Assembly (NCBI GenBank): GCA_020343655.1
Contig: CP070805.1
Span: 1,955,145-2,019,144, forward strand
Source: Promethearchaeota archaeon
GTDB lineage: Archaea; Asgardarchaeota; Lokiarchaeia; Sigyniarchaeales; SOKP01
DNA: 64,000 bases
Direction: 5' to 3'
In this document: positions 46,327 to 64,000 of the stretch, one piece after another
How the letters are laid out: every line of letters starts with the position of its first letter
How positions within the stretch are numbered: the first letter of the stretch is position 1
Program-made: the position numbers and the translations under genes
Notes under the pieces: generated by a model
The model's input: only the letters and a program-made list of their open reading frames with translations
Database searches by the model: none
Told to the model about the DNA's origin: nothing

Positions 46327-46380
46327 ATAATATTAAATATGAATTAATTATAATTAATGAATTTATCCATCTACTTTTCT

Positions 46381-47211: not shown

Positions 47212-47215
47212 AAAT

Positions 47216-47584: not shown

Positions 47585-47830
47585 GTAATGATCTATAACG
47601 ATACTTCACAAATCCTAAAGGAAAAACCTTGAATTAGTTGTTTAATAAAAAAGAAACGAATTTTTAATAACAGCTTTGATAAAATAATACTTTTAATATT
47701 GTGTTTTCAAGTAAAAGTTTTATAAATAAACCTTTGATAAAAATAACTAATCATTTGATCTTATAATTAAAGGTTTGATCCATCAAATCTTTTGATTTAA
47801 ATTTATCAGATGAGAAAAAAGTGATTTAGA

Positions 47831-48883
47831 ATGGTAATCGAAACGAATATTACAAAAATGTTAGGGATTAAGCATCCGATACTAAGTGCTCCTATGGGAC
47901 CATTTTATACTACTAAATTAACAGTTGCGGTATCAGAAGCGGGTGGTTTAGGTGTTTTAAGTCATGTTACCTTACATGGAACTATAACTATAGATGAAAT
48001 GAAAAAAAGTATGGAATATGTTGTTGAATATACTGATAAGCCTTTCGGTTTTAACATTAGAACAGCTAGATTACAACCAGACGCTATTAAACTTTGTAGG
48101 CAACTTCCGAGGTTTATTATGGAAAATCCAAAAATAAGAGAACAATGTGTCTATTTACTTACTAGCGCAGGGTCTCCAAGGATGATATATAACAAACATT
48201 TTGAAAAACTAAGAGAAAGTGGTTCAAATATAAAGCATTTCCATGTAGCTCCGACAGTGTATTTGGCTGAAAAGTTGGTTAATAGTGGTATTGATGGGCT
48301 TGTTGTTACCGGAACCGAAGGTGGAGGTCATCAATCTTATGATAATGTAAGTACTCTAGTCTTATTACAACAGATAAGAAAAAAATTACCGGATCTTCCC
48401 ATAATTGCTTCTGGAGGTTATGCCACGGGTGAAGGGCTAGCTTCTGCATTATCTATGGGTGCAGGAGCTATCGCAATGGGATCTAGGTTTATATCTTCCA
48501 AAGAATGTGAATTTCACGAGAATTATAAAAAAATAGTAGTTAATTCAGATGCTTCAGATACTGAGCTTAAAACAGGGATTTTTGGACCTGCAAGAGTATG
48601 GAAGAATAAAATGGCCGAAAAACACGATCTTGTAGCAAGTAAAGAAGAAAAACAAGCTGGAGAGATTTCGATGGCAAAAGTTGAAAAAGAATTAGCTGAA
48701 TTAGAAAGAACTTATGAAGGAAACATTGAGGAAGGAATAGCCTATTTAGGACAAAGTGTTGGATTAATAAATAGTATAGAAAGTGTCTCAGAAATAATAA
48801 ATACTATAGTTGTTGATGCTGAACAATGCTTAAAAGCAGCCTATAATACAATTAAGAAAATTTCTATAGAACAAATAATTTAA
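47831..48883 (+). CDS. Nitronate monooxygenase / FabK-like FMN oxidoreductase (paralog of 34044..35081)
   Basis: Same motifs; shares long identical blocks such as ETNITKMLGIKHPI, APMGPFYT, ESGSNIKHFHVAP. Confidence 0.9.
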   Translation: MVIETNITKMLGIKHPILSAPMGPFYTTKLTVAVSEAGGLGVLSHVTLHGTITIDEMKKSMEYVVEYTDKPFGFNIRTARLQPDAIKLCRQLPRFIMENPKIREQCVYLLTSAGSPRMIYNKHFEKLRESGSNIKHFHVAPTVYLAEKLVNSGIDGLVVTGTEGGGHQSYDNVSTLVLLQQIRKKLPDLPIIASGGYATGEGLASALSMGAGAIAMGSRFISSKECEFHENYKKIVVNSDASDTELKTGIFGPARVWKNKMAEKHDLVASKEEKQAGEISMAKVEKELAELERTYEGNIEEGIAYLGQSVGLINSIESVSEIINTIVVDAEQCLKAAYNTIKKISIEQII

Positions 48884-49179
48884 AATTCATTTTTATTGTA
48901 AATATCTTTTTTTAACTTATAATATTGTTAATGTTAATATTGTTAAATTCGATAATAGAACAATCTCAATTTTAGTATTAAACAGATAATAACAATATAA
49001 ATATTCAAATTATACAGATATTTCTATTGAAAATATTATTTGGAATTAAATAAATTTCAAAATAAAATTTCAAAAATAACTTATAAAATAAGTTAGTTGA
49101 TAAGACGTATCTGCTATTTAGATTAAATAAGAATATATTATAATAATTAAGAAAGACTTGCAACGTTAAAAGGGCTAAA

Positions 49180-49605
49180 ATGATCCAAGAATTAATGATA
49201 ATTAATCAAGCAGGAATAGCTTTATTTTATCATGATTTTTTGAATAACAATAGATTAGATGATGAACAATCCCTAGCTAGCTATTTTGATATAATTTGCC
49301 GGTTTACAAAACGAGAATTTAAAGAAAGCCTGAAAATGTTAACGTTAGATAGTTTTATCTTTTTCTTTTTTAACCACAGCTCTGGTTTTCATTTAGTTCT
49401 TAAATGCGATAATAAAGATATTGATAAAAGACAGCTAGAATCCTTTTCTGAAACCATAATTGATGACTTCTTACTAAGATATAAAGGTATACTAAAAGAT
49501 TTTAATGGAGAAATTTCTCAATTTAAATCTTATTCCACTTATATTATACAATTTCTTGATACTAAATTCAAGAATTTCAAGAAGACTCGTTATATAGAAC
49601 TCTAA
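49180..49605 (+). CDS. Longin-like domain protein
   Basis: MIQELMIINQAGIALFYHDF start, LASYFDIICRF helix, FNGEISQF end. Confidence 0.65.
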   Translation: MIQELMIINQAGIALFYHDFLNNNRLDDEQSLASYFDIICRFTKREFKESLKMLTLDSFIFFFFNHSSGFHLVLKCDNKDIDKRQLESFSETIIDDFLLRYKGILKDFNGEISQFKSYSTYIIQFLDTKFKNFKKTRYIEL

Positions 49606-49698
49606 TAAAAATATTAGCAAAAAAAAAATAAGAGAAAAATTAGTCGGCTTTTTCTCCTTACAACCCCGTGATAAATACGTCTCTACTTAATGGATTAC

Positions 49699-49953
49699 TT
49701 AAACTCCGCCTGCTTGTGTAGCCATTACTGTTATTACGTCCTTTTTTGGATGAATTCCGATCTTCGAGAATTTTAGTTGGTCAGGTAAAACTTTTCCTTT
49801 GAATATAAATTGTATTGCTAATATTGGATTTAATTTATACTCACGCTGTACAGTTTTTTTAATTTCTGCTATTGAGTTGTTTGGATCTAATTCGATAAGT
49901 TTGATGGCTTGATCTGGGGGGACTCCGGTTAACCTAAACCTATATTGGGTAAT
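49699..49953 (-). CDS. Ubiquitin-like (beta-grasp) protein ending GG-V; probable ATT start
   Basis: 84 aa: (M)TQYRFRLTGVPPDQAIKLIELDPNNSIAEIKKTVQREYKLNPILAIQFIFKGKVLPDQLKFSKIGIHPKKDVITVMATQAGGV; GGGTGTGAT 5 nt upstream; in-frame stops just before. Absent from ORF track. Confidence 0.88.
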   Translation of the reverse strand: MTQYRFRLTGVPPDQAIKLIELDPNNSIAEIKKTVQREYKLNPILAIQFIFKGKVLPDQLKFSKIGIHPKKDVITVMATQAGGV

Positions 49954-50054
49954 TGTTTATCACACCCTTTTTATAATTTCTAAATTGATTTTTTTAAATA
50001 TTAATTATCAAATTTATTAATTAAGGATTTTCGTTCAACAAACCGAACTTTAGT

Positions 50055-50082
50055 TTAAAAAAGGCGGATATACCTTTTTTAA
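50055..50082. terminator. Hairpin with A/T-tract arms, possible terminator
   Basis: TTAAAAAAGG-CGGATATA-CCTTTTTTAA, perfect 10-bp stem about 25 bp downstream of the 50107..50310 stop. Confidence 0.5.
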
Positions 50083-50106
50083 CTTAAAACATTTCATAAA
50101 AATATT

Positions 50107-50310
50107 TTAAAATCGAAAAGGCTCTGGAGGAGGTCCTGGTGGACCCGGCGGTCCTGGAGGGTGTATAGGGCTGGGTTTTGGTGATGGAGGAGATGGAAAC
50201 CGCCCGAATTTGTTTTCTAAACTTGACAAACGTTCTTCAATTCTATCTAACCTTTCTTCAATTCTTTTTATTCGCTTTAAAATATTCGGATCTTCTATTG
50301 TCATATGCAA
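50107..50310 (-). CDS. Small coiled-coil plus polyproline/(GPP)3 protein
   Basis: RIKRIEERLDRIEERLSSLE then PSPPSPKPSPIHPPGPPGPPGPPPEPFRF; likely start ATG 50304. Confidence 0.75.
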   Translation of the reverse strand: MHMTIEDPNILKRIKRIEERLDRIEERLSSLENKFGRFPSPPSPKPSPIHPPGPPGPPGPPPEPFRF

Positions 50311-50493
50311 TTAAATTATCAATTAATTTTGAATAAATTCCAATTTCTAACATTAAATTCTTATTTATAAAATTTTACTTATTATTATTCTTAATATATA
50401 CTAAAATAGTTAATATTTGTATTTTTATATTTTTTTAGTCTAAGTCCAAAAAAAAAGTATATATTTATATATCTTGGTTTATACTTTTTTATT

Positions 50494-51594
50494 ATGGAAA
50501 GCTGGAATATTTCAAAAAAATTAAAGACTGAATTATTAAAAAAATCTAGCAATATCGAAGACAATAGCAGGAGAATATTATTCATTCTTAGAAATTTGGG
50601 TCCTCAAAGATTTACAAATTTAGTGAGATATTCGAATTTAAGTAGATCCACCGTTTCCAAATATCTTACTCTTCATAGAAAAAATAAAAATATAGAACAA
50701 AGGTTAATAACAGACAGAAAAACAAACAAGCAGTATAGGAATTATGTAATTACTGAAAAAGGAATAGAAAAACTCGGAGAAGAACCTTTAAAACTAAAAG
50801 ATGAGTTATTTATTGTTAATGAGTTAAAGGAAAATGTCAGGAAACTCGAGGATTTAATAGATTTTTATAAAGAAATAAATGTAGAAGATGCCTTCATAAT
50901 TCAAATCGTAAGGATCATTTCTAAAATAGGAGATAATTTTTTTGAATTACAACAAGATAGAGATCTTTATTTATCCCTTTTTTACATTTTTTATAACTCA
51001 ATTTTAGGACAGGGAGCTTTTGCAAGAAAGTATTGGCGTTTTGATGAATCAAGTTCTCAAAAATTTGGTGGTTACAAATTGAATATAGACCAATATTGTG
51101 AAGTTTATAATGTTTCAAGAGAGGCAATTAATTATTTAGCGAGGTCTAAACTAATTAAGAATGATTTTGGATTTTATTTAATTAAACGTGAAAAGAATGA
51201 TTTTTTCTTTCATGAGGAGGATTTATTAGGGACAACAACACTCAGACTCATCAAAGATAAATTAATAGATGAGATAATTAATCTCCAAGAAGGTATCTAT
51301 GAAATGATTTATGATCTGGATATTATAGCTGATGAAATAACTAGCCAGTTAAAAGAAATGGGTTTAATATGGGATGCCATTCAAGAACAATTTCAATTAT
51401 TGGTTTTAAACCTAATTATCAAGAATGCTATAGAAATGGGTTTTTTAGATATAGAACGAGAAAAATTAATGGAAGGAGTTGCAAAATCACAAAAATTACC
51501 TATGTCACTAGAAGGTAAAATGCTCCAGGAAGCCATTTTAAATAGTTCAAAATTAGAGTTAAATTTTAACATATTAACTTCTACATTTTCTTAA
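50494..51594 (+). CDS. Winged-helix (ArsR/MarR-like) protein with large helical C-terminal domain
   Basis: GPQRFTNLVRYSNLSRSTVSKYL...YVITEKG. Confidence 0.72.
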   Translation: MESWNISKKLKTELLKKSSNIEDNSRRILFILRNLGPQRFTNLVRYSNLSRSTVSKYLTLHRKNKNIEQRLITDRKTNKQYRNYVITEKGIEKLGEEPLKLKDELFIVNELKENVRKLEDLIDFYKEINVEDAFIIQIVRIISKIGDNFFELQQDRDLYLSLFYIFYNSILGQGAFARKYWRFDESSSQKFGGYKLNIDQYCEVYNVSREAINYLARSKLIKNDFGFYLIKREKNDFFFHEEDLLGTTTLRLIKDKLIDEIINLQEGIYEMIYDLDIIADEITSQLKEMGLIWDAIQEQFQLLVLNLIIKNAIEMGFLDIEREKLMEGVAKSQKLPMSLEGKMLQEAILNSSKLELNFNILTSTFS

Positions 51595-51693
51595 AAGAAT
51601 TTTGAGTAGTTGAAAAAATAGAGGTTTTAATATACCTAAAAAAGAATTATTATTGCATTAGTTCTTTTGAAAAAATCCCTCATCATTTAAACT

Positions 51694-53226
51694 ATGCTTG
51701 AAATTCAATTTTTTTTTTTATCAATAATCCTAATCTGTGTTTTATATATAAGCATTAGAACTACAAATAGAATAAAAGAATTTATAATAAACAAATATTT
51801 AAAACTAAAATTAGAAAACAGGAGAACTAATATTTATGTAAATAATAGATTATTTCGACAGTGTATGTACCTCTTGTTAAATATTCCTGTTAATAGAGTA
51901 GAGGATTATGATGAGATTGAATCGATTGATGAAGCTGTTGAAATATTGGATAGATCTATGGAAAGAAATCCAGCTATTAGGGGAAAGGTTTCTCCTGAAG
52001 AAGAGTTCTTAGGACATTGTTCAAATTTACAAGCTTGGGAGGATAATGGATATGACACACGGATCTTACATAGAAATTTAGCTTTCCCATTACTCAAAAA
52101 ACTTACTGATGTAGGAGATCCAATTGCTAAAAGGAAGTTTAAGGAAGAGATAGCTATTAGATATGCGAGTGGACACCCAACAGTAATGAGGTTTTTAATA
52201 CAGAATGGGTATTTAAAATATCTAAGTGATGAAGAATTTGAAACTATTTTAGATGATATAAAATCTCCATTGTTTGATGAAATTAGCGGGCAAATAGAAA
52301 AAAACCTAAAACACAGCTTAAATCAGGATGCAATTAAAAATATTAACTTGCAAATCACAAAATTATTTAGATTTTTTCGTTTCAACAGGAATTATATGTT
52401 TTTATTTCAAATTGTAAAGAGAATCTCAAGAGGATATAGACAAAGATTTGTAGAGATAGTTTTGAATAGATTTCGCAATACCTATAGATTTCCTATGGTT
52501 CAATTTATGGAATATCTGTTAAATAATTTTGAAGATATAAAAATTGAATATGTGAAATATAATGGAAGGATTATCGGTTTTTTAAACAATGAAATTTTAA
52601 TTTTGAAAAAGAAGAACATTAGAGATATTGACAGTATAGAAGGCATAAGAGATTTTTCTGATAAAATTATAGAACTAGATTTGAGTTATAATAATATTTC
52701 AGAAATAAAAGGGCTTGAAAATTTAAAAAATTTAAGAAAATTAAATTTGAGAAACAATCTAATAACTCAGATTAAAGGTATAGATCTTTTAAAAAAATTA
52801 GAATATATAGACTTATCAGGAAATATCAATATCTCCGAAATACCTGATATTTTAAATGATTTGCCAGATTTGAAAACCATTAAATTATCTGGTTGCAGAA
52901 TAAATAAGTTTTCTGATGCTGTATCAAAGTTTTTTTGGATGGGAGATAATTATAGATGTTATACAAAATACATAATTGAAGATATTGAGTATTATGAAAA
53001 ACATCATAAAGGAAAAGCAAAATCAAATAATAAATTGTACAAAAATTTTGTAAAATGGCTCTTTAAATTGAGTTCATTACGAAAGGAATATAAATTCTCA
53101 TATAGAGATATTAAAAGCTTTGAATCTGAAACTGATCTAAAAGCAATCTGGTCTGGTAAGCTAAGTGTTGCATTTAAAAAATGGCTTATTGATAAAAAGC
53201 AAAAAAAAATTACTTCTTTTATTTAA
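51694..53226 (+). CDS. Leucine-rich repeat protein with uncharacterised N-terminal domain
   Basis: SDS22-like LRRs LDLSYNNISEIKGLENLKNLRKLNLRNNLITQIKGI; N-terminal EEEFLGHCSNLQAW..YDTRILHRNLAFPLL block. Start uncertain. Confidence 0.85.
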   Translation: MLEIQFFFLSIILICVLYISIRTTNRIKEFIINKYLKLKLENRRTNIYVNNRLFRQCMYLLLNIPVNRVEDYDEIESIDEAVEILDRSMERNPAIRGKVSPEEEFLGHCSNLQAWEDNGYDTRILHRNLAFPLLKKLTDVGDPIAKRKFKEEIAIRYASGHPTVMRFLIQNGYLKYLSDEEFETILDDIKSPLFDEISGQIEKNLKHSLNQDAIKNINLQITKLFRFFRFNRNYMFLFQIVKRISRGYRQRFVEIVLNRFRNTYRFPMVQFMEYLLNNFEDIKIEYVKYNGRIIGFLNNEILILKKKNIRDIDSIEGIRDFSDKIIELDLSYNNISEIKGLENLKNLRKLNLRNNLITQIKGIDLLKKLEYIDLSGNINISEIPDILNDLPDLKTIKLSGCRINKFSDAVSKFFWMGDNYRCYTKYIIEDIEYYEKHHKGKAKSNNKLYKNFVKWLFKLSSLRKEYKFSYRDIKSFESETDLKAIWSGKLSVAFKKWLIDKKQKKITSFI

Positions 53227-53251
53227 AATAGTAGATCAAATTACTTTTTTT

Positions 53252-54196
53252 TTAAGAAAAATCTAGCATCTTCTCAATAGGTTTTAAAGCTTTTTTTGCT
53301 ATCTCAAGGGGTACTTTAACTTCAAAAGCTTTATCATCTAAATTTTCTAAAAGATATTTTATTAGTTCTAAGTTATGTTTCTTCATATTATAGCATACTA
53401 ACTTATCTTTTGCTAAGTAAAAACTCTTTTCTGGAAAATCCTGGGCCATACGTTCTAATAATCCTACTTCTGTCCCTATTATGAACTCTTTTTCTTCAGA
53501 AGAACTATCTCTAACATAATTATACATTCGTGAAGTGGAACCTACATAATTTGCTAACTCTCTTACTCCTCTAATACATTCGGGATGAACAATAAGTTTT
53601 GCTTTAGGATATTTTTCTTTAACAGTTTTTATATCCTCTATAGTAATCTGAGAGTGCACGTAACAATGCCCAGATTCAGGCATATTAATACAATTAATTC
53701 CCGAGATTTGTTCGGTGTAATCTGCTAAGTTAGCATCTGGTCCAAATAATACTGAATCAACCTCAAATTCGTTACTAATTTTTTTCACTATTTCAACTGC
53801 ATTAGCAGATGTGCAACAAATATCCGATTCAGCTTTAACAGCGGCAGTTGAATTGACATATATAACAGCAGGTAATCCTGGATTATTTCTTTTAAACTCT
53901 TTGACCATTTCAGGAGTAAGAAATGCTGCCATTGGACAACATGATTCATAATTAGGTATTAAAACATGCTTGTCTTGATTTAGTATTGAGGCGGTTTCTG
54001 CCATGAAGTCTACTCCTGCAAATATAATATATTCTGTATTTGCTTTTTCTTTTGCTGTTCGAGATAATCCAAGAGAATCACCTATAAAGTCAGCTATTTC
54101 CTGTATTTCGATGGATTGATAATAATGAGCAAGTACTAATACATCATTTTGATTTTTTAAGTTCAAAATATCTTCTTGTAATTGCTTAACAGTCAT
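53252..54196 (-). CDS. nadA: Quinolinate synthase
   Basis: LAHYYQ, GDSLGL, GVDFMAE, CPMA, YVNS, CTSANA, CYVH, HPEC, GST, CYNM. Confidence 0.96.
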   Translation of the reverse strand: MTVKQLQEDILNLKNQNDVLVLAHYYQSIEIQEIADFIGDSLGLSRTAKEKANTEYIIFAGVDFMAETASILNQDKHVLIPNYESCCPMAAFLTPEMVKEFKRNNPGLPAVIYVNSTAAVKAESDICCTSANAVEIVKKISNEFEVDSVLFGPDANLADYTEQISGINCINMPESGHCYVHSQITIEDIKTVKEKYPKAKLIVHPECIRGVRELANYVGSTSRMYNYVRDSSSEEKEFIIGTEVGLLERMAQDFPEKSFYLAKDKLVCYNMKKHNLELIKYLLENLDDKAFEVKVPLEIAKKALKPIEKMLDFS

Positions 54197-54352
54197 TTTT
54201 ACAAAAAGGAAATAGTGTTTCTTATAAAATAAAAAGATTTTAGTAAAAATAAGTTGTTGGTTTATAAAAATTAAAACGCTTTATTTATTGATTTTATAAA
54301 AAAGAATAAAAAAATTTTTGGAATGAAAGAAGAACACAGTCTCAAATTAAAA

Positions 54353-57300
54353 TTAATCCTCACTCATGCATTTTTTTAATATTAAATTATAGAGTTGAAC
54401 TACATTCTTCTCGAAATCCATTAAATCGAATTTAAGTCCCAACCTTGGTTTAAGAAGTGGGGGGATATGATCTTGATCTAAAAATACAGGAATTATAGAT
54501 TTGCCCATCATATCCGCTGTAGTCCATTCCTTATCAACCGGTATAGAATTTAAAGCATTTTCAGAACAAAATAAGATCATTGCATTACATCTTCCAAGAT
54601 TATTACTCATATAGAGTATAATATTATCTTTCACATGTTCTCCCCAATATAATACCTCCTTAATTTCGTCGTATGCGCTTAATCTCTTTGCTAATTCCTC
54701 TATTTTAAACAATTCAGCATCTGCTGTAGCATAACTTATAAATATTACTAAATCCTCTATTTTCTGAGCAGTCTTTGGTCTTTTTTCTCTCAATGGATAA
54801 TTTCTAAATTCAGTGATAAAACCTCCATCCTTTAGAAACTTACCAATCTTTTTTGCAGTTTTAAAATCATATCCTAATCCTATTATTAAATGATATAAGG
54901 AGGGCTTAATGGATTCTTTTAATATTTTCGTCCCTAATGCCTCTAAATTATTAATGTCAGACTCATCATACGGTATAGGTTGTTTTAATAAATTTTCATA
55001 ATATTCTGTGTCTGAGATTTCTATATTAAGTTGGTTAACCATCTCAGCTTTAGTGATATCTCTCTGATTTTCAAACTCAAATTCTAGAATCTTTTTAACA
55101 ATCTTTAGAGTTTCTTTCGGGTCCCTTAAATTCTTCAGTTTTTCAAAAGCAATCTCTTTAATTTCTTCAAAATTAAACAACTCAGCGGATTCTAGAACAT
55201 AATTTAGCTGTTCAATAGCTTCTGAATATTCATTATTAACAATTAACTGTTCTACACTTGATAATTTTTTTCGTAGTTCTTTTAGAAGTTCTGCTTGTTC
55301 TTCTATTAATAAATCCCATATTAAAACATCGCCAGAATTGTATCCTGCAATTATTTGGTCTCTATTGGGAATAAATTTTGCTGAATTAATTTTTGATAAG
55401 TAATAATAAGATGTTTGATGCTTCTCCATAAAATCCCATAATCTAACAAAATTATCTGCTGTTCCACAAGCCACATATAATCCATCAGTTGAAAATGTGA
55501 CTGATGTAACTGGGCTATTTATTTTTTCAAATGTATAATCTAACTCACCAGTTTCAAACTTCCATATTTTAACAGTTTGATCCTTAGAACCACTTGCAAT
55601 ATATTGCCCATCTGGAGAAAACTCAATTGAAGTTACAACATCATTATGGCCCTCAAGAGTGCGAATTTGCTTTCCCTTCTTCATACTCCATATTTTAATA
55701 GTAGTATCTTCTGAACCAGTTGCTATATATTCCCCATTTGATGTAATATCGACTGATGTTATTGCTTTTGAGTGTCCTTTTAATTTTTTCTTTAAGTTAC
55801 CTGTATGTGTCTCCCAAATTATAGCAGTATTATCTTTCGAACCACTAACAATATAATCTTTATCAGGAGATGCTGCTACAGAAGTCACAGCTTGATCATG
55901 GCCACTAAGTGTCCACAATATTTCACCACTTTCAATTTCCCATATTTTTAATGTATTGTCATAAGAACCACTAACAACAAATTTTCCTCCTGGTGAAAAT
56001 GCCACAGAACTGATAATATCTGTATGGCCCTTTAGAGTTTTGATCAAATTTCCATTTGAGAGATCCCACACTATTAAAGACTTATTTGATAAACCGCTCA
56101 CAGCATATTTTCCATTTGATGAAACTGCTACGGAATTCACATTTTCAGAATGACCTTTAATATATTTGAATACACCACCAAAATCAAGTGCCCAAATCTT
56201 TAGTGAGCCGTCCTGAGAACCGCTTATAGCATATTTCCCATCTGGAGTTATTCCTACAGATGATACTTTATCTGAATGACCTTCAAAAGTCTGGATAAGC
56301 TCATACTTATTATCCCACACTTTTAGTGTTTGATCATTTGAAGAACTAATAAAACAATTACCTATTGGAGAAAAAGAAACACCTGAGACAATATCAGAAT
56401 GTTGTTCAAGACTATCTATTAAATCTCCTGTATAGAAATCCCAGATTTTTATAGATTTATCATCAGAACTACTGCAGATATTTGCTCCATTTGGGGAAAT
56501 TGCTAATGATAATATATTTCCTTTATGACCACTAAGATCTTTAATTACTTCCTTTGAATTGAAATCCCATATCTTTATGTGTTTATCTTCGGCACCGGTT
56601 ACAAAATATCTCCCATTAGGTGTGAATTTTATTGAGGTTATGGGGCCCTTATGAACTTTTGATTCCCATATGAAATCATTATTCTGAAGGTCCCAGATTT
56701 TTAGTGTGCTATTGTTTAAGCCCATAACTATTTGTTTATCGCTAGGAGTAAATGTTAATGAATTTACAATCTGTCCTATTTTATCTAAAGTTACTATTGG
56801 TTTTGTATTTATAAGATCCCATATGATTACTTTCTTATCTAAAGAACTGCTAACAAGATAATTACCATCGGAAGAAAAAGCAATTGCATTAATAGGTTTT
56901 TTATAGTCTGTAAGAGTTCTTATCAAATTTAAACTCTTAAAATCCCATATTTTAAGTGTTTTGTCGTTTGACCCTGTTCCAATAAAATCTCCATTCTGAG
57001 AAATTGATAAAACGTTTATCCCATCTGTATGAGCATTTATGGTTTGCTCTAATCTACCTTCCATAAACTCCCAAACCATCAAATCATTATCTGTAGAACC
57101 TGTGATTATATATTTACTATCAGGAGAAAAAGCAATTGATAATACAATACCAGTATACTTTCTTAATGTCCTAATGATTTTACCTGTTGATAAATCCCAA
57201 AATTTAATAGTTTTATCATCAGAACCACTTGCTAATAACTTTCCATTTGGTGATATTGCTACAGATCGAACAATTTCTGAATGACCTTCAAGGATAGAAA

Positions 57301-58027
57301 TAATTTTAGACTTCGTTAAGTCCCATATTCTTATTGCATTATCATTTGATCCACTAGCCATAAACTTCCCATCAGGAGAAACTGCTAAAGAAGTTATAGC
57401 ACCAGAATGCCCTTTAAGAGTACGTTCGAATTTTTCTTTCTTTAAATTCCATATATTGATGGTTCCATCATCTGTTCCGCAAACTAAGTATTCTCCGTCA
57501 TTGAATAAAGCAATTGAGGTTACACCACTTTTATGTTGAAAAGTGTGCACAGGTTTTGCGCCCAAGATATCCCATATGATAACCCTTTTATCCATAGAAC
57601 CGCTTATAATATACTTCCCACCAGGAGGGACTACTAATGAGGTAATTGAATCGGTATGTTCTTTAAATTCATTAATAAAATTACCTCGTCTTGTTCCCCA
57701 TATTTTTATCGAATTATCAGTAGAACCGCTAAAAATATAATTATCATCTAATGAAATTGCTACTGATAATATTGACTGACTATGAGCTTCTATTGTTCTT
57801 AAAAGATTTCCTGTTGAAAAATCCCAAATTTTTAAAGTTTTATCTTCTGATCCGCTAATAATATAATCGCCTTTATTAGTAATAGCAACCTGATTTACGC
57901 TACTAGTATGACCAAAACTTTGAGCCATATGAAAAGCTTTTGCGAGTCCTTTCCTTTTAGGATATAAATGTTGGGGATATTCAAAACTGTCTTTAATTCT
58001 TTTTTTCTGGAACTCAACTTGCACCAA
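54353..58027 (-). CDS. WD40-repeat (21 repeats) protein with C-terminal TIR domain
   Basis: 21 countable GH..SGS.D..IKIWD-type repeats, helical linker, TIR IFISYATAD...LFCSENALNSIPVDKEW...IIPVF..IPPLL. Confidence 0.93.
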   Translation of the reverse strand: MVQVEFQKKRIKDSFEYPQHLYPKRKGLAKAFHMAQSFGHTSSVNQVAITNKGDYIISGSEDKTLKIWDFSTGNLLRTIEAHSQSILSVAISLDDNYIFSGSTDNSIKIWGTRRGNFINEFKEHTDSITSLVVPPGGKYIISGSMDKRVIIWDILGAKPVHTFQHKSGVTSIALFNDGEYLVCGTDDGTINIWNLKKEKFERTLKGHSGAITSLAVSPDGKFMASGSNDNAIRIWDLTKSKIISILEGHSEIVRSVAISPNGKLLASGSDDKTIKFWDLSTGKIIRTLRKYTGIVLSIAFSPDSKYIITGSTDNDLMVWEFMEGRLEQTINAHTDGINVLSISQNGDFIGTGSNDKTLKIWDFKSLNLIRTLTDYKKPINAIAFSSDGNYLVSSSLDKKVIIWDLINTKPIVTLDKIGQIVNSLTFTPSDKQIVMGLNNSTLKIWDLQNNDFIWESKVHKGPITSIKFTPNGRYFVTGAEDKHIKIWDFNSKEVIKDLSGHKGNILSLAISPNGANICSSSDDKSIKIWDFYTGDLIDSLEQHSDIVSGVSFSPIGNCFISSSNDQTLKVWDNKYELIQTFEGHSDKVSSVGITPDGKYAISGSQDGSLKIWALDFGGVFKYIKGHSENVNSVAVSSNGKYAVSGLSNKSLIVWDLSNGNLIKTLKGHTDIISSVAFSPGGKFVVSGSYDNTLKIWEIESGEILWTLSGHDQAVTSVAASPDKDYIVSGSKDNTAIIWETHTGNLKKKLKGHSKAITSVDITSNGEYIATGSEDTTIKIWSMKKGKQIRTLEGHNDVVTSIEFSPDGQYIASGSKDQTVKIWKFETGELDYTFEKINSPVTSVTFSTDGLYVACGTADNFVRLWDFMEKHQTSYYYLSKINSAKFIPNRDQIIAGYNSGDVLIWDLLIEEQAELLKELRKKLSSVEQLIVNNEYSEAIEQLNYVLESAELFNFEEIKEIAFEKLKNLRDPKETLKIVKKILEFEFENQRDITKAEMVNQLNIEISDTEYYENLLKQPIPYDESDINNLEALGTKILKESIKPSLYHLIIGLGYDFKTAKKIGKFLKDGGFITEFRNYPLREKRPKTAQKIEDLVIFISYATADAELFKIEELAKRLSAYDEIKEVLYWGEHVKDNIILYMSNNLGRCNAMILFCSENALNSIPVDKEWTTADMMGKSIIPVFLDQDHIPPLLKPRLGLKFDLMDFEKNVVQLYNLILKKCMSED

Positions 58028-58283
58028 AAATCACATTTTATTTGTCATTGAATTAACAATTTCTTCAGATCTTAATAAAATAAAATTCAATATAAATATT
58101 TGGACAATATTGTTTTAGACATAATGGTAGAATTAGAATACTTTATGAAGATATTAGAAAACCATTTTCTTAAAAGCGAGTAAAGATGGAAATTTACAGA
58201 TCTGATACCTACTTTAAAAATGAGAATTTAATTAACAAAAAAAATATTATTTAGAATTTATGTTATTATTGTCTTTATTTAAA

Positions 58284-58703
58284 TTAATCAAATCTCTTAC
58301 GTGTAATTATTAAGTATATAATTCCAAACACTCCCATACAAAATGCAAGTATAATAATATAATTTGGCCAATAAGCAAAATCAAATATACCTGGATTTAT
58401 TATCCAACTTAATATTGCATTAATTGTAATCACAACCATTAAGCTTAGAAGTACTAGTGCTTGTCCCATTGCCCACTCTGCTTCTTTAAACAATCCTATT
58501 CCCGATATCAAACACCAGATGCCTAAAACTATTGAGAGGAGCCATTGTCCACCAATACCAATTACTGGATCCCAACCTGGAGGAACTAATATTCCGATCA
58601 CTGGCAAGAACTCAAGAATTCCCTTGAAAATGAAAACTGCTCCTAAAGCGATTAATAAAATATTAAAAAGCCCACTTGATCCTTTTACTTTACTTGTACT
58701 CAT
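58284..58703 (-). CDS. Small 4TM membrane protein
   Basis: Four hydrophobic segments; GIGLFKEAEWA loop. Confidence 0.75.
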   Translation of the reverse strand: MSTSKVKGSSGLFNILLIALGAVFIFKGILEFLPVIGILVPPGWDPVIGIGGQWLLSIVLGIWCLISGIGLFKEAEWAMGQALVLLSLMVVITINAILSWIINPGIFDFAYWPNYIIILAFCMGVFGIIYLIITRKRFD

Positions 58704-58885
58704 TTTAAATTTACCCTCTAATTATTGATAAAAATTGAATTTAATTATTAAAAAATTGTTATATAAATATTTAAAGATTTATCTTTACTTCAAAACAAAT
58801 AGAAATCGATATTATTTTTATCTGTTTTTATATAGAAATAATGTAAAAATAAAAAGAAAAAATAAATAAAAAAATTATATTTTTT

Positions 58886-60613
58886 TTATAAAACTCCAGC
58901 ATCTTTTAATATTTGCTTGTGATCAAAGGCTAAATCCATCAATTTGATCTTATCAATTTCTATAGCCTCAGCAACAATAGCATCGTCTCCTCCTTTTAAT
59001 CTTGAAACATCTTTTACTATACGACATTGATATGCTGTTGATACAATTCTTCCACGTGGGTCTCGGCCTTTTTGATCATATGTCCCAATCTTTTTTATGA
59101 TCTCTACAGCTAGACCGGTTTCCTCTCTCACTTCTCTTATTATAGCTTGTTCCGGATCTTCATTGTATTTTATGAATCCACCAGGGAGGGCATATTTTCC
59201 TTTGTAAGGAGCATACTTTCTTTTAATTAATATTACATTTTGGTTATCATCTTGAATGACGGCATCAGCCGTATGTCCCAGTTCTGAAGCTTTTGAAACT
59301 ATTCTGACATATATAGTATATCCTACAATAATTATGACGAATGCTCCTAAAATTATCGAAAGTATTGTATGCAGTAACGGCGATGGTTGAACTGTTTCTT
59401 CTATGGCAAAAGAAACTCTTATTGCATTAGCAAATTCCACTATAAATCCTAAGCCAAATAGGACATTCAAGTAGTATATAGCCTTTTTTGTTCTTTTTTG
59501 GGTCTCTTCACTTCTCTTTAAATATAACTCTTGCAAAGAATCATATAGCATCGTGAATTTTTCATTTATTCTTCGTATAACTTCTTCAATACGAAATTTC
59601 CTAATTAAGTGGGTTAATATCCTTTTATAATGTTGACGTTGATTCCGATCCAACTCATTATAAATAAGGCTCATCTTAGTCTGAATCATTCCTCTTAAAA
59701 ATCTTAAATTTTTAGTTTTGTCTTCAATTCTCTCTAAGCTCATAAAGACATCGGAATATCTCTTCATAAATAAAACATCAAGAGAATGATTAATTGTCAT
59801 TAGCGCGAATAATACTGCTCTAATTTTTGTTGCTGGTTCTAATATATGTTCTATCATATATGGAAATTCTGATTCATAGTTTCTTTCTGCCATATAAATA
59901 AACCCAGAATTTCTCTTGATATAATGCAATTCAGATAACCGATTTGATAAATTCTTTTTAACCCTTCTTTCAAAAAGATCATCACTATAATCACGCCATT
60001 GACCAGCGTAAATTTGAGTCCAATATCCAAGAACTTTTCTATTCTTGTATACATTTTCCTCATCCCATTGAATTTCCATCGGTGTGGTTTTTGTGGATAT
60101 CACGAAAAGATAAATTGGGCTGTCTGTATCAAGAAGTAAATATTGATTTTCTTTTTTCTTACTAAATTCCTTTAAGATATCAAGTACTATAAATGGTACT
60201 TGTTGGATTAAGTCTGGTTTAATTTTCTCTTTTTTAAATGACTCATTTTTGAAATATTCTACTTCGAATTTAAAATAACCTAAAGTATTGTAAATCAAAT
60301 CTTTGTCATCTTCCGTATATGGATTATCCTCATCGATATAGGGGAAATTTTGGAAAAATGGTTCCCAATCACATTCAATTGAAATTGATTTAGCCATTTC
60401 TATTAAGATGTCTTTCTTTTCTTCAGCATAGGGAGTTTTTTCTAAAAATGTGAATACTTTTTTTAAATCATTATCACTTAGATCTTTTAATCTTTTTAAT
60501 AATAGAGCTTCTATTTCTTCTGCTTTAGTTTCTCCAATAAATTCATTTGTATTAATGAATGCACTAACATACCAGTATTCTTTTCTATATATAAATTGTA
60601 AATTTCCTTCCAT
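58886..60613 (-). CDS. CorA-like soluble domain plus 2TM fused to a C-terminal Nudix hydrolase
   Basis: Nudix box GGFIKYNEDPEQAIIREVREETGL with RDPRG, GDDA, LAFDH; two TM helices preceded by a long helix. The CorA-like call is by architecture only. Confidence 0.8.
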   Translation of the reverse strand: MEGNLQFIYRKEYWYVSAFINTNEFIGETKAEEIEALLLKRLKDLSDNDLKKVFTFLEKTPYAEEKKDILIEMAKSISIECDWEPFFQNFPYIDEDNPYTEDDKDLIYNTLGYFKFEVEYFKNESFKKEKIKPDLIQQVPFIVLDILKEFSKKKENQYLLLDTDSPIYLFVISTKTTPMEIQWDEENVYKNRKVLGYWTQIYAGQWRDYSDDLFERRVKKNLSNRLSELHYIKRNSGFIYMAERNYESEFPYMIEHILEPATKIRAVLFALMTINHSLDVLFMKRYSDVFMSLERIEDKTKNLRFLRGMIQTKMSLIYNELDRNQRQHYKRILTHLIRKFRIEEVIRRINEKFTMLYDSLQELYLKRSEETQKRTKKAIYYLNVLFGLGFIVEFANAIRVSFAIEETVQPSPLLHTILSIILGAFVIIIVGYTIYVRIVSKASELGHTADAVIQDDNQNVILIKRKYAPYKGKYALPGGFIKYNEDPEQAIIREVREETGLAVEIIKKIGTYDQKGRDPRGRIVSTAYQCRIVKDVSRLKGGDDAIVAEAIEIDKIKLMDLAFDHKQILKDAGVL

Positions 60614-60820
60614 TTTTATTTGCCCTTAATTGTTTAAAGAGGTTAAATTATTATTAAAATACTATTCTATTTATTACTTTTTTTTTAAAATTAGCTTTAT
60701 TTTTTTTTTTTAGTTTCCAATTTTTCTGAGCTGATTTCAAGCTGTTTTAAAAGGTTTATATACAATAGCACTTTCACTTTAATTAATTAGATTTCCAATA
60801 TTAAATTTGAGTTGACACAA

Positions 60821-63800
60821 ATGACTAAAAAGAAGCAAATATTTAATTTATTAATAGTTTTCTTTATTATTTTGATAATTGGATATCTAGGTGAAAATCT
60901 AGCTACAAATTATGCAGAAACAGTAGAAGATAAAACACAAAAGAACCTTAGGAATTCTGGTTATTGGGTACTTGATTTTATACATGTTAAGGGTAATTGG
61001 ACTCAAACAAATTCTACCTTTGATTGGTGTTCTGGTTCCGGAACAGAAATTGATCCGTATTTGATTGAAAATGTTGTTATAGATGGCCAAAATTCAAGCA
61101 GTTGTATAATAATTGAAAATACAAGAGAATATTTTGAAATAAAAAATTGTACTTTATATAATGCGGGAGCCGAACAAATTCCAGAATATGATTGTGGAAT
61201 CAGAATAGAAAATTGTAGTAATGGAAAATTAATTAATAATAATATTTCATTTAATAATTTCATCGGTATGTATCTTGATGATTGTAATAATACTGTTATT
61301 CAAGGTAATAATGTTTCACACAATGAATGGAGTGCAATTTATCTATTATTCTGTCAAGACTGTAAGATTGTTGGAAATAATGTATATAATAATTCTCGAG
61401 AAGGAGCCTATCTTACACGTTCTGATTACTTAACTGTATTAGATAATACATTTATTAATAATTCTGAGAGTGGTGTAAGTTCATATCAAAGTGACCATTG
61501 TTACTTCAAAAATAATACAGCCTCATTTAATTTAGAGTCCGGATTTCAACTATTGTCGATATTTAATAATACAGTGATTAATAACACCATAAATAACAAT
61601 GGTGCTCACGGATTATTGTTAAATGATGCTAATAATTGTACCATTATAAGAAATATAGCAAATAATAATACTGGAACTATGGCTGCGGGAATTTTCTTGG
61701 GCAATGGTAATTATAATTCATTCTTAGGCAATATAGCAGAATTTAATTATTGGGCTGGGATTTTCTTTCAAGGAACCTGTCTTTTTAATAATGTAACAAG
61801 AAATAATTTGACTTATAGTGGTGTAACTGGGTTATATTTTTGGGGTGCATTTGGACCTATTGAACAAAATATTATTTCAGGAAACAATATAACTAATCCT
61901 GGTGAGGAGGGGATACAACTAGCAGTCTGTCAATTTAATACAGTTGTAGGAAACAATATCGATGATAATAATTATGGGGTGCTCTTAAACAGTTGTAATA
62001 ATACCTCTATTTCTGGAAATACAATAAAAAATAGTTTCAATAACGGAATATATTTAGTAAATTTTAATGAGAATAATACTATCTCAGGAAATGTTATTGT
62101 CAATCAAAGTTGGGGGATACGTATAATAAACAGAAATAAGAATAATAAAATAATTAATAATAATATTTCAGAGAGTCGGAGTTCAGGTATTCATGTTGAT
62201 TTCTTAAATGATTTAAATATTATCTCTGGAAATATTATAGATAATAGCGATGAGGATGGTATATACCTTTCTGATGAGTGTACAAAAAATGTCATTTCTG
62301 GAAATACTATTGATAATAACAGTCTTAATGGAATTCTATTAGAGGATGAGTGCAATAATAATACAATTATGGGTAATACTATAAAAAGCAATGATAATAA
62401 TGGGATTTCTCTAGATAATAACTGTTATAATAATACTATAATTGGAAATAATATTTATAATAACTCGAATTTTGGGCTTTATTTAGATGACCATTGTGAA
62501 AGAAACGAAATTTCTGGTAATAATCAAATATGGAACAATTCTAACGGGATTTTCCTCTATACCTGTGATCATACTATAATAAATAACAATGATATTTACA
62601 ACAATAGCGGATATATAGCATGGATGCAATATAACAACTATACAACCTTTTGTAATAATAATATATATGAAAATGATTTATACATGTATATTCATAGTTG
62701 TTATTTTAGCAATTATTCTGACAATATAATTATAAATAACGCAGATCACGGATTATATCTTCTAAGTTGTGAAAATAATACTATTTCAGGAAATACCATA
62801 ACTAATAATGAAAAAAATGGAATTTATTTAAGAAATAGTATTAATCATACCATTACTGGTAATATTATCAAGTATAATGATGAAAAGGGAATTTATGTAG
62901 AGAATAGTAATAATACTAGTCTTACTGGGAATATTATTACAGATAATGGTGAAAACGGAATATATTTACTAACCAGTAATTATAATAATATTACCGGAAA
63001 TTATCTGATTTGTTATTTGGAATGCATTTTAGAGGATACATGTGTAGGAAATATTATAGAAAATAATGAGTATTACGTAAATCTCACCAGCATTCCTGTT
63101 TTCATAGATGGTAATAGTCAATGGAGTTCTATTGCAAGTTCAGAGTTTTGGTGTAGCGGTTCTGGAACTTTTAATGATCCATACGTTATATCTCATGTTT
63201 ATATCAATGGACAAGATTCCGGCTCCTGTATCTTAATCCAAAACACTACAGCTTATTTTACAATCGAGGAAAGTATTATATTTAATTCAGGATCAGGGAA
63301 TTATGACGCTGGTATCAAATTTATTAATGTAACCAATGGAAATATAATAAATAATAATTGTTCATTAAATCTTGGTTCAGGGATTATATTGTTATATTGC
63401 TCCAATATGACGATTTTAAACAATATCATGGAAAATAACCCTAATAGTTATGGATGTTGGCTAATTTGGAGTGATAATAATAATCTTACTGGAAACACTG
63501 CGTATAATAATAATATTGGAATTGGTCTGAATTATAGTAACTTTAATGATATCATTGGTAATTTTTTAGATTTTAATAGCTACGGTGTGACACTAGGGCA
63601 TAGTAATAACAATACTATTATGGGAAACACCTTAAATAATAATTCCTTACATGGTATCTTTTTATATTTCAGTGATTACAACTTCATTTCAGGGAACATC
63701 ATAAATGGTAATGAACACTATGGAGTATATCTATTTTCAAGCGATTATAACACGATTTCATTTAACACATTTATTTTTAATGTGGAAGGGATTGTTGAAA

Positions 63801-64000
63801 ACGGAACTAGCACTGGAAATGTTTTTGAAGATAATGATATTGTAAATAGAGATAGTGATGGTGACGGGTTACCAGTCCAACCTGATAACTTAATATTTAT
63901 TATAATTGCTGCTGCTGGAATTAGCGTGGGAGTAATGGGAACTATTATTTATACACAATATAGAAGAATTAAACGAAGAAAAAGAACCGATTGGGTTAAA
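60821..64000 (+). CDS. Large surface right-handed parallel beta-helix (NosD/CASH-like) protein, type I membrane, runs off the right edge
   Basis: ATG 60821, signal-like hydrophobic stretch, many GIYL..NNTISGN repeats, two WCSGSGT..DPY caps (about 61025 and 63148), TM LIFIIIAAAGISVGVMGTIIY then RRIKRRKR; no stop seen. Absent from ORF track. Confidence 0.88.
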   Translation, partial: MTKKKQIFNLLIVFFIILIIGYLGENLATNYAETVEDKTQKNLRNSGYWVLDFIHVKGNWTQTNSTFDWCSGSGTEIDPYLIENVVIDGQNSSSCIIIENTREYFEIKNCTLYNAGAEQIPEYDCGIRIENCSNGKLINNNISFNNFIGMYLDDCNNTVIQGNNVSHNEWSAIYLLFCQDCKIVGNNVYNNSREGAYLTRSDYLTVLDNTFINNSESGVSSYQSDHCYFKNNTASFNLESGFQLLSIFNNTVINNTINNNGAHGLLLNDANNCTIIRNIANNNTGTMAAGIFLGNGNYNSFLGNIAEFNYWAGIFFQGTCLFNNVTRNNLTYSGVTGLYFWGAFGPIEQNIISGNNITNPGEEGIQLAVCQFNTVVGNNIDDNNYGVLLNSCNNTSISGNTIKNSFNNGIYLVNFNENNTISGNVIVNQSWGIRIINRNKNNKIINNNISESRSSGIHVDFLNDLNIISGNIIDNSDEDGIYLSDECTKNVISGNTIDNNSLNGILLEDECNNNTIMGNTIKSNDNNGISLDNNCYNNTIIGNNIYNNSNFGLYLDDHCERNEISGNNQIWNNSNGIFLYTCDHTIINNNDIYNNSGYIAWMQYNNYTTFCNNNIYENDLYMYIHSCYFSNYSDNIIINNADHGLYLLSCENNTISGNTITNNEKNGIYLRNSINHTITGNIIKYNDEKGIYVENSNNTSLTGNIITDNGENGIYLLTSNYNNITGNYLICYLECILEDTCVGNIIENNEYYVNLTSIPVFIDGNSQWSSIASSEFWCSGSGTFNDPYVISHVYINGQDSGSCILIQNTTAYFTIEESIIFNSGSGNYDAGIKFINVTNGNIINNNCSLNLGSGIILLYCSNMTILNNIMENNPNSYGCWLIWSDNNNLTGNTAYNNNIGIGLNYSNFNDIIGNFLDFNSYGVTLGHSNNNTIMGNTLNNNSLHGIFLYFSDYNFISGNIINGNEHYGVYLFSSDYNTISFNTFIFNVEGIVENGTSTGNVFEDNDIVNRDSDGDGLPVQPDNLIFIIIAAAGISVGVMGTIIYTQYRRIKRRKRTDWVK

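What the first reader, a model, noticed from the sequence alone, without database searches (positions are those of the whole stretch)
53252..60613. Candidate NAD/ADP-ribose signalling or immune module: Nudix-fused CorA-like membrane protein, 4TM protein, WD40-TIR and nadA
Seen: four consecutive minus-strand genes (gaps 182, 256, 156 bp), three of which make NAD precursor (nadA), may cleave NAD (TIR with Glu in VDKEW) or may bind/hydrolyse ADP-ribose (Nudix with RDPRG/LAFDH); an LRR gene converges on them. Established: TIR domains can be NADases or make ADPR-derived signals that activate membrane effectors (e.g. Thoeris), and TRPM2 is an ADPR-gated channel with a Nudix-homology domain. Inference: a sensor (WD40) to TIR to ADPR-type signal to Nudix-gated membrane effector circuit, with NAD resupply. 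Caveat: the gaps suggest separate transcripts, so adjacency could be chance.
Basis: partly seen in the sequence, partly recalled or inferred. Interest (0 to 1): 0.82.

Follow-up and report, generated by a model that had tools for sequence, protein, structure and literature searches.

The report
Asgard TIR sensors with membrane Nudix
In this Asgard archaeon, three genes that move around genomes together (a propeller-shaped sensor ending in an NAD-cleaving-type TIR domain, a small membrane protein, and a channel-shaped membrane protein fused to an ADP-ribose-type enzyme) look like an undescribed NAD-derived signalling module, while the neighbouring NAD-synthesis gene nadA is probably a bystander.

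Summary
The four ORFs, gaps and motifs are as described. Three form a real module in Lokiarchaeia. The CorA-like–2TM–Nudix protein belongs to a paralogue clade (A) with a TIR gene within two genes in 17 of 27 other loci, against 2 of 51 for its sister clade B. WD40-TIR orthologues occur in 18 of 135 family genomes: 17 also carry clade A, 12 beside it, in five gene orders at four sites. A second, receptor-like TIR gene starts at 60812. The TIR Glu and Nudix box are intact; the Nudix best matches NrtR–ADP-ribose (Z 20.4). The CorA-like fold is only weakly supported and lacks GMN. nadA and the LRR belong to a conserved block where clade B normally sits; γ-carbonic anhydrase is linked as often. 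Best reading (about 50%): TIR-made ADPR-type signal opens a CorA-like pore and the Nudix switches it off. No step is shown biochemically, and an antiviral role is untested. Not found in the literature searches; this scan noted the same pairing earlier on other genomes.

The parts
58886..60613 (-). CorA-like soluble domain and stalk (aa 1-383), two TM helices (about aa 384-440), C-terminal Nudix hydrolase (aa 445-575); clade A paralogue; core of the module
   Evidence: ORF; Pfam; models (pLDDT 85.5, 89.1); fold searches; tree
59111..59179 (-). Intact Nudix box (G479, E485, R493, E494, E497, E498); followed by RDPR (517-520) and AFDH (562-565), shared with NrtR/NadM-type Nudix domains
   Evidence: Box residues invariant in all ungapped clade A rows (25-26 of 28) and 51 of 51 clade B rows; alignments to 2qjo and 3gz8
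59906..60022 (-). Conserved patch aa 198-236 (W198, Y202, G204, D208, Y209, R217, N221, N224, R225, E228, R234, N235, S236) in the CorA-like soluble domain; candidate ligand or subunit-interface site
   Evidence: Nearly invariant in clades A and B; most of these positions stay at 90% or more in the alignment that includes Nudix-less homologues; role inferred
58284..58703 (-). 139-aa four-TM protein of unknown family; tightest partner of WD40-TIR
   Evidence: 4 TM; no Pfam; next to the WD40-TIR in 14 of 18 orthologue genomes, 1 without, 3 cut by contig ends; cassette copies group apart from 18 stand-alone copies at SH-aLRT 86
54353..58027 (-). WD40-TIR: about 21 WD40 repeats (three propellers, aa 30-912), helical linker, TIR_2 domain (aa 1095-1222) with E1167; no TM segment
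   Evidence: 17 repeats matched by pattern, 4 more implied by the 42-aa spacing; TIR_2; Glu conserved in 52 of 52 TIR domains aligned
60812..64000 (+). Receptor-like protein divergent from the Nudix fusion: N-terminal hydrophobic segment, NosD-type beta-helix ectodomain, one TM (aa 1028-1046), then a TIR domain just beyond the window end (1424 aa, G000:C1:2015956-2020230); probable second input
   Evidence: its TIR groups with TIRs beside clade A at other loci
53252..54196 (-). nadA, quinolinate synthase; resident neighbour, probably not part of the module
   Evidence: NCBIfam equivalog above cut-off; single copy in 55 of the 56 genomes with a match, of 61 searched; linkage pattern; nadC lies about 70 kb away
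51694..53226 (+). LRR protein with N-terminal TM; part of the conserved resident block, not of the module
   Evidence: within 3 genes of 27 of 51 clade B loci but 2 of 27 clade A loci

Best explanation
A three-gene signalling cassette (CorA-like-Nudix clade A, 4TM, WD40-TIR), often extended by receptor-like membrane TIR proteins, that has inserted at the locus of an older paralogue (clade B, beside nadA) and replaced it in this lineage. Shown: the parts, intact catalytic residues, repeated linkage. Inferred mechanism: a stimulus sensed by the WD40 propellers (or by the ectodomain of a TM-TIR receptor; the 4TM may tether or co-sense) clusters the TIR domains, which convert NAD+ into ADP-ribose or a linear ADPR derivative; this binds the oligomeric CorA-like protein (most likely at the conserved soluble-domain patch, possibly also at the Nudix) and opens or deforms a cation pore; the fused, catalytically intact Nudix hydrolyses the signal and so times or resets the response, as NrN does for CRISPR CorA and NUDT9-H for choanoflagellate TRPM2. 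Whether the output is antiviral or a stress/environment response is open. I put functional coupling of the three genes at about 0.85 and this gated-pore mechanism at about 0.5.
For: TIR within 2 genes of clade A in 17 of 27 other GTDB-derived loci (13 of 17 with two genes on each side) vs 2 of 51 clade B loci, both being B copies next to an A cassette; 23 of 36 metagenome loci, many short and partly redundant with the former. Background expectation about 0.004 per locus, 0.013 in the TIR-richest genome (from counts). Reciprocal test: WD40-TIR orthologues in 18 of 135 genomes, 17 with clade A (clade A in 29 of 135), 12 within one gene on the same contig. Five gene orders, four genomic sites. 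Three separate TIR subfamilies sit beside clade A, and a distant fused homologue in G042 has TIRs on both sides. All 52 TIR domains keep the Glu. Nudix box intact; best structural match NrtR with ADP-ribose, Z 20.4, rmsd 1.9, 130 aligned. CorA heads both fold searches of aa 1-440; Atlas neighbours include a 'CorA-like' cluster at 0.95. The genome has a canonical CorA elsewhere. Precedents: type II Thoeris (10.1101/2024.01.03.573942, abstract), CRISPR CorA with adjacent or fused signal-degrading enzyme (PMC10600005, passages), TRPM2 chanzyme (10.1101/2023.03.16.533055, abstract).
Against: No biochemistry. CorA resemblance is weak (Foldseek best E 4.4e-3, TM 0.2-0.3; VIA Z 7.9, rmsd 7.1, in the range the tool calls common) and GMN is absent. 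Clade B keeps the same Nudix and patch residues with no TIR neighbour, including in genomes with no TIR_2 match (G002, G016, G017, G027, G028, G029), so the protein has a TIR-independent job. TIR-rich genomes G008, G023, G024, G030, G032 have no match to the CorA-like domain. 10 of 27 clade A loci lack a TIR within 2 genes (4 of 17 with full flanks); G020 has clade A and no TIR_2 match (92% complete); 3 of 18 WD40-TIRs lie away from clade A (G117, G140, G141). Gene orders include divergent and convergent ones, so it is not one operon. The loci are kin (three genera of one family), so Fisher values overstate. No defence genes flank the site (51 of 53 window ORFs of 120 aa or more scanned in Pfam), and WD40-TIR orthologues diverge no faster than the CorA-Nudix, which does not suggest an arms race.
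Confidence: 0.5

Rival explanations
1. Clean-up partner: the TIR proteins are the effectors or signal by another route, and the membrane-tethered Nudix removes the ADP-ribose they release (to AMP and ribose-5-phosphate) for detoxification and salvage; the CorA-like body is a scaffold or a constitutive transporter, not a gated effector.
For: Intact catalytic box; clade B persists without TIRs and beside nadA, like nrtR-nadA divergons (PMC2330246, Table 1 passage); SIR2-like NAD-consuming genes also abut some distant homologues; many TIR-rich genomes do without the protein.
Against: Stand-alone Nudix paralogues of the same type exist in these genomes, so a 440-aa conserved membrane body is not needed for clean-up; Nudix-less homologues keep the conserved patch and 3 of 10 complete ones (one genus) sit directly before a SIR2-like gene, which points to the CorA-like body as the coupled part.
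Confidence: 0.25
2. Reverse or guard wiring: the CorA-like-Nudix (or the 4TM) is the monitored component or antitoxin, and WD40-TIR is a NAD-depleting toxin released when it is disturbed.
For: WD40-TIR is almost never found without clade A (17 of 18) while clade A often occurs without it (12 of 29), the asymmetry expected of a toxin needing a partner.
Against: Several unrelated receptor-like TIRs with different ectodomains converge on the same gene, which fits many inputs to one output better; the same asymmetry is expected if sensors are exchangeable.
Confidence: 0.1
3. Hitch-hiking: the genes were neighbours once and have been inherited or moved together, or both favour the same insertion sites, without functional coupling.
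For: All clade A loci come from one family; linkage is lost in several genomes.
Against: Linkage survives five gene orders and four sites and recurs with three TIR subfamilies and in a different family (G042), while other neighbours change.
Confidence: 0.08
4. One reading: a four-gene circuit in which nadA is a dedicated NAD-resupply member.
For: nadA is adjacent here and within 3 genes of 34 of 51 clade B and 6 of 27 clade A loci; NrtR-type Nudix genes often cluster with nadA (PMC2330246).
Against: nadA is the single housekeeping copy, does not travel with the cassette to its other sites, is not linked to the fusion in the genomes outside the family where both were found, and γ-carbonic anhydrase is linked as often (38 of 51).
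Confidence: 0.07

Closest known systems
Type II Thoeris (ThsB TIR makes His-ADPR; effector with TM helices and a Macro domain)
   Same: TIR with catalytic Glu beside a membrane protein carrying an ADPR-type binding domain (10.1101/2024.01.03.573942 abstract; 10.64898/2025.12.03.692087 passages).
   Different: Nudix with an intact catalytic box in place of Macro; CorA-shaped body; TIRs are large multi-domain sensors or receptors (Pfam TIR_2; no PADLOC ThsB hit); variable gene order; not in a defence island.
Type III CRISPR-associated CorA effector with NrN/DEDD phosphodiesterase (Bacteroides fragilis Cmr, SAM-AMP)
   Same: Divergent CorA-like membrane protein with a conserved soluble-domain cluster proposed to bind the signal, adjacent or fused to an enzyme that degrades the signal (PMC10600005, passages).
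   Different: No Cas10 or CRISPR context; signal source is TIR; degrader is a C-terminal Nudix; no PADLOC match among 51 aligned members beyond scattered single hits.
TRPM2 chanzymes of choanoflagellates and invertebrates
   Same: Membrane protein with a C-terminal, catalytically active Nudix-type module; ADPR opens and hydrolysis closes (10.1101/2023.03.16.533055, abstract).
   Different: Unrelated scaffold (two TM, CorA-like, versus six-TM TRP, recalled); Nudix is of the NrtR/NadM group, not NUDT9; analogy, not homology.
NrtR regulators and NadM-Nudix ADP-ribose pyrophosphatases
   Same: Closest characterised Nudix relatives by sequence and structure.
   Different: No winged-helix DNA-binding domain, no adenylyltransferase domain; membrane-bound; far below NCBIfam cut-offs (57.7 vs 400 bits).
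CorA/ZntB/CmaX (MIT) cation channels
   Same: Alpha/beta soluble domain, long stalk helix, two C-terminal TM helices; top fold hits.
   Different: No PF01544 match, no GMN motif, 10-13% identity, fused Nudix; a canonical CorA exists elsewhere in the genome.

Membership tests
Thoeris | TIR protein with catalytic glutamate | tested here: met
   TIR_2; E1167 and the equivalent Glu in 52 of 52 aligned TIRs
Thoeris | Match to ThsB or a described Ths effector (SIR2-SLOG, TM-Macro and others) | tested here: not met
   No ThsA/ThsB model hit in PADLOC 2.0 for the window proteins or TIR domain; the library predates types V-XI, and the figure listing 29 putative types in the 2025 preprint was not seen
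Thoeris | TIR gene reproducibly adjacent to a cognate effector gene | tested here: met
   but orientations vary and it is not a fixed two-gene operon
Thoeris | TIR makes a diffusible ADPR-derived signal that activates the effector and protects against virus | not testable with these tools
   needs biochemistry and infection assays
CorA/MIT channels | CorA fold (alpha/beta domain, stalk, two TM) | tested here: inconclusive
   CorA ranks first in both searches but weakly: Foldseek E 4.4e-3, TMq 0.20-0.26; VIA Z 7.9, rmsd 7.1, 232 aligned; three more MIT chains at Z 6.4-6.7
CorA/MIT channels | GMN (GxN) selectivity motif after TM1 (motif recalled) | tested here: not met
   TM1 reads LFGLGF here, LFGAG[IV] in clade B; no GMN in the alignments
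CorA/MIT channels | Pentameric ion-conducting pore | not testable with these tools
   five copies cannot be folded with the tool; conduction needs experiment
CorA/MIT channels | Pfam PF01544 match | tested here: not met
   0 of 51 members; the genome's only PF01544 match lies elsewhere
CRISPR-associated CorA effector | Linked to a type III CRISPR locus and NrN/DEDD/SAM lyase | tested here: not met
   no cas genes among 51 of 53 window ORFs scanned
Nudix ADP-ribose pyrophosphatase (NadM/NrtR group) | Intact Nudix box GX5EX7REUXEEXGU | tested here: met
   intact signature correlates with activity in this group (PMC2330246, passage)
Nudix ADP-ribose pyrophosphatase (NadM/NrtR group) | Closest structure and motifs of the ADPR-binding group | tested here: met
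   3gz8 Z 20.4, 2qjt 18.4, 2qjo 18.1; an Aquifex protein labelled 8-oxo-dGTPase domain ties (Z 20.0) and is the best sequence hit, so specificity is not settled
Nudix ADP-ribose pyrophosphatase (NadM/NrtR group) | Hydrolyses ADP-ribose | not testable with these tools
   needs assay
NrtR | C-terminal winged-helix DNA-binding domain | tested here: not met
   protein ends with the Nudix domain
TRPM2 | TRP channel scaffold with NUDT9-H domain | tested here: not met
   only two TM segments; Nudix is NrtR/NadM-like
Quinolinate synthase NadA | Equivalog model above cut-off | tested here: met
   NF006878 362 vs 294 bits; TIGR00550 338.8 vs 262.9

The most novel reading that the evidence does not exclude
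Lokiarchaeia run a modular receptor-to-channel pathway: exchangeable Toll-like receptors (ectodomain, single TM, cytoplasmic enzymatic TIR) and a cytoplasmic WD40-TIR sensor all feed an NAD-derived second messenger into one CorA-fold channel-enzyme that is opened by the messenger and closed by its own Nudix domain. [quoted passage not shown]
Probability: 0.3. Interest if true: 0.9.

Novelty: new variant of a known kind. Interest (0 to 1): 0.72.

Why it matters
TIR enzymes signal through NAD-derived molecules in bacteria, plants and animals, but the Asgard defence surveys checked here mention no TIR-Nudix or TIR-CorA module in their main text. This cassette supplies a defined set of proteins (sensor TIRs with intact Glu, a candidate receptor-effector with its own degrading enzyme, and a TIR-free sister paralogue as a natural control) with which to ask whether Asgard archaea use TIR second-messenger signalling, what the messenger is, and whether the CorA fold has been recruited a second time as a nucleotide-gated effector. 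It would also give a non-TRP example of an ADPR channel-enzyme.

Tried and rejected
Complex prediction of four copies of aa 243-440 gave no verdict (score 0.01, own fold uncertain). Sequencing-run search listed no RNA holder; laying four DNA runs showed coverage across the region but the joints had only 20-22 letters on the short side or skipped under 70 bases, so no empty-site evidence was taken from them. Sigma-70 promoter and terminator scans gave counts at chance level and do not suit archaea. No Rfam match in 44000-64000. Repeats found are the WD40 and beta-helix coding repeats; no convincing terminal repeats or mobility genes at the cassette. Pfam, PADLOC and NCBIfam give no family for aa 1-440 or for the 4TM; the Atlas gives only unnamed clusters for the 4TM. 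No TRP-family or CRISPR-CorA structure appeared among the listed fold hits, which excludes nothing. My first reading from a 61-genome draw, that the 4TM never lies beside the fusion, was overturned by the wider sample. The first SIR2 profile failed to iterate and was rebuilt from four Pfam-confirmed proteins, so it is a narrow profile. The NrtR structure paper was not held, so individual ADPR-contacting residues were not mapped. Tree rows left out: split or short CorA-like ORFs (under 350 aligned residues), identical sequences and the metagenome loci; for the A/B counts, rows of at least 62% identity to the window protein were taken as A (the 100-support clade) and 44-54% as B, and 14 more distant rows were in neither group.
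Full report
Observation. The window lies in a Lokiarchaeia-type Asgard genome (homologues are named Promethearchaeota/Lokiarchaeota) at G000:C1:1955145-2019144, with no assembly gap inside it. Pfam confirms NUDIX, WD40, NadA and LRR and TIR_2 at aa 1095-1208 of the 1224-aa protein. Two of the genome's four TIR_2 matches therefore flank the Nudix fusion.

The Nudix fusion. AlphaFold2 models (pLDDT 85.5 and 89.1) show an alpha/beta domain, three helices, a 60-residue stalk running into TM1, a short loop, TM2 and a C-terminal Nudix. The Nudix matches NrtR bound to ADP-ribose best (3gz8, Z 20.4, rmsd 1.9, 130 aligned), with NadM-Nudix close behind and an Aquifex protein labelled 8-oxo-dGTPase domain tied. 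The Nudix box is intact and invariant in every ungapped row of both clades; in the NrtR group an intact box correlates with ADPR pyrophosphatase activity (PMC2330246, passages). Residues 1-440 have no Pfam, PADLOC or PDB sequence match. Folded alone, they return CorA first in Foldseek (E 4.4e-3, probability about 0.9, TM 0.2-0.3) and VIA-align (T. maritima CorA Z 7.9, rmsd 7.1, 232 aligned; three more CorA-family chains at Z 6.4-6.7); the Atlas gives a 'CorA-like' cluster at 0.95 and MJ1566_N at 0.92. This is concordant but weak; the GMN filter (motif recalled) is absent, and a canonical CorA lies elsewhere in the genome. A patch at aa 198-236 is nearly invariant, also in 444-aa homologues without a Nudix. 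The family is wide: 528 homologues among 5952 candidates, 88 of 135 genomes of the family, 91 representatives at 50% clustering.

Two paralogues. A tree of 93 proteins puts the window protein in a 28-row clade (A, SH-aLRT 100; 574-581 aa when whole). Most other family members (B, 557-578 aa) sit divergently from nadA in a conserved block (Sm, roadblock, ThiF, gamma-carbonic anhydrase, fusion, nadA, LRR, HTH, longin). Several genomes carry both. Clade A has a TIR gene within two genes in 17 of 27 loci other than the window (13 of 17 with two genes on each side); clade B in 2 of 51, both being B copies beside an A cassette. Of 36 metagenome loci, many short and some redundant with the former, 23 have a TIR. 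From 114 TIR_2 matches in 136 Mb of the genus the chance expectation is about 0.004 per locus.

Reciprocal test. Searching 135 family genomes with the WD40-TIR C-terminus found 18 orthologues. Seventeen of those genomes have clade A, which is present in 29 of 135 (27 long matches and 2 fragments); within the largest genus 13 of 21 clade A genomes against 1 of 21 others. In 12 of 18 the two genes are within one gene of each other on one contig; in G110, G123 and G126 a contig ends in or just after the WD40-TIR; in G117, G140 and G141 they are apart. The 4TM adjoins the WD40-TIR in 14 of 18, is missing in 1 and cannot be judged in 3; cassette copies group apart from 18 stand-alone 4TM homologues at modest support. 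Five orders occur: fusion>4TM>WD40-TIR (window, L085, L179); 4TM>WD40-TIR>fusion (L088, L093, L097, L100); the pair divergent from the fusion (L089, L098); convergent (L102); and 4TM inverted between them (L099), at four different genomic sites. Other clade A neighbours are membrane TIRs with WD40/PQQ, LVIVD, beta-helix or periplasmic-binding ectodomains, from three separate TIR subfamilies, all with the catalytic Glu. These genomes are kin, from three genera of one family, so the counts are not independent trials; the argument rests on survival of linkage through rearrangement and change of site. Outside the family, a distant fused homologue in G042 has TIR genes on both sides and a SIR2-TPR gene next, one in G051 overlaps a SIR2-like gene, and 3 of 10 complete Nudix-less homologues (one genus) precede a SIR2-like gene; most other distant copies examined have no such neighbour.

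nadA and LRR. nadA is the single housekeeping copy. It lies within 3 genes of 34 of 51 clade B loci, but gamma-carbonic anhydrase does so in 38 and ThiF in 34; for clade A it is 6 of 27, only at the resident site. L093, L095 and L163 show the A cassette inserted between gamma-carbonic anhydrase and an intact B copy; loss of B from such a state would give the window's arrangement (inference; no root or clade test was run). G015, G020 and G004 have clade A directly followed by nadA without 4TM and WD40-TIR; G006 has one contig end reading fusion then nadA start and another reading TIR 3' end then nadA, which suggests presence/absence variation among strains. An old NAD-related reason for clade B beside nadA, like nrtR-nadA divergons (PMC2330246, Table 1 passage), is not excluded.

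Mechanism. Shown: parts, intact catalytic residues, linkage. Inferred: sensor-driven TIR clustering, NAD+ cleavage, binding of the product by the fusion, pore opening, hydrolysis by the Nudix as off-switch. I favour ligand binding at the CorA-like body with the Nudix as timer because the patch outlasts the Nudix in evolution and because CRISPR CorA binds its signal and is adjacent or fused to a degrading enzyme (PMC10600005, passages). Against: clade B keeps the same residues without TIRs, even in genomes with no TIR_2 match; five TIR-rich genomes have no match to the CorA-like domain; no defence genes flank the site; the WD40 repeats are only 36% alike on average and orthologues diverge at about the rate of the fusion, so an antiviral role has no direct support and stress or environmental signalling is as likely. 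A clean-up role for the Nudix is the main rival (0.25).

Known systems and novelty. It works like type II Thoeris (10.1101/2024.01.03.573942, abstract), CRISPR CorA-NrN and the choanoflagellate TRPM2 chanzyme (10.1101/2023.03.16.533055, abstract) but fails membership tests for each. Literature searches (listings seen) returned no description of this pairing. Term searches in the main text gave 0 occurrences of Nudix and CorA in the Thoeris I-XI preprint (10.64898/2025.12.03.692087; abstract, passages and section 5) and in three Asgard papers (PMC13700489, PMC11291487, PMC12962969; passages), and 0 of CorA in PMC9503650 (passages). The preprint's Figure 1 and supplements, which list 29 putative types including a 'predicted ion channel', could not be seen and may bear on novelty; subscription papers were not searched. 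This scan's earlier notes describe the same TIR and CorA-like-Nudix pairing on other genomes; I had reached the reading before opening them, and they are not independent support. Verdict: real three-gene module plus a receptor TIR, nadA incidental; new variant of TIR-to-membrane-effector signalling; interest 0.72.

Noticed in passing
L062:9995-10240 and L063:7862-9295 (G006): One scaffold end reads Nudix fusion then nadA start; another reads the 3' end of a WD40-TIR then nadA. Suggests strains with and without the 4TM/WD40-TIR insert in one population.
   Followed up: partly
L076:8407-12579, L239, L240, L027, L064: SIR2-like (PF13289) genes lie directly after Nudix-less homologues in three genomes of one genus and after a fused homologue in G051; a second NAD-consuming domain class near the same family.
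   Followed up: partly
L092:11854-19445, L098:11806-18687, L094, L083, L089: Arrays of up to three membrane TIR proteins with different ectodomains (LVIVD/TSP3, WD40/PQQ, beta-helix plus periplasmic-binding) converge on clade A; Toll-like receptor architecture.
   Followed up: partly
L196-L212: Stand-alone homologues of the 4TM occur in many genomes in unrelated contexts, without TIR neighbours; family of unknown function.
   Followed up: partly
window:43211-44020: CobB-type sirtuin 9 kb from nadA; looks like an ordinary NAD-dependent deacylase.
   Followed up: no
window:19103-20626, 35401-36414, 49180-49605: Eukaryote-signature genes: actin-family protein with a zinc ribbon, Ras-like GTPase with a long extension, longin/sybindin-like protein.
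   Followed up: no
window:12824-15550: 908-aa ORF with no Pfam match at 1e-5 in the lowest-GC part of the window (23%).
   Followed up: no
G000:C1:172333-172605 and 1130075-1132579: The genome's other two TIR matches: a 90-aa TIR fragment and an 834-aa protein with a C-terminal TIR of a more distant type.
   Followed up: no
L080 (G012), L141, L160: Broken or split copies of the CorA-like-Nudix gene; in G012 only the Nudix part remains as an ORF.
   Followed up: no
L086, L147, L154: Records labelled as non-Asgard taxa carry Lokiarchaeia-type loci; probably mislabelled or mis-binned, so not evidence of wider spread.
   Followed up: no
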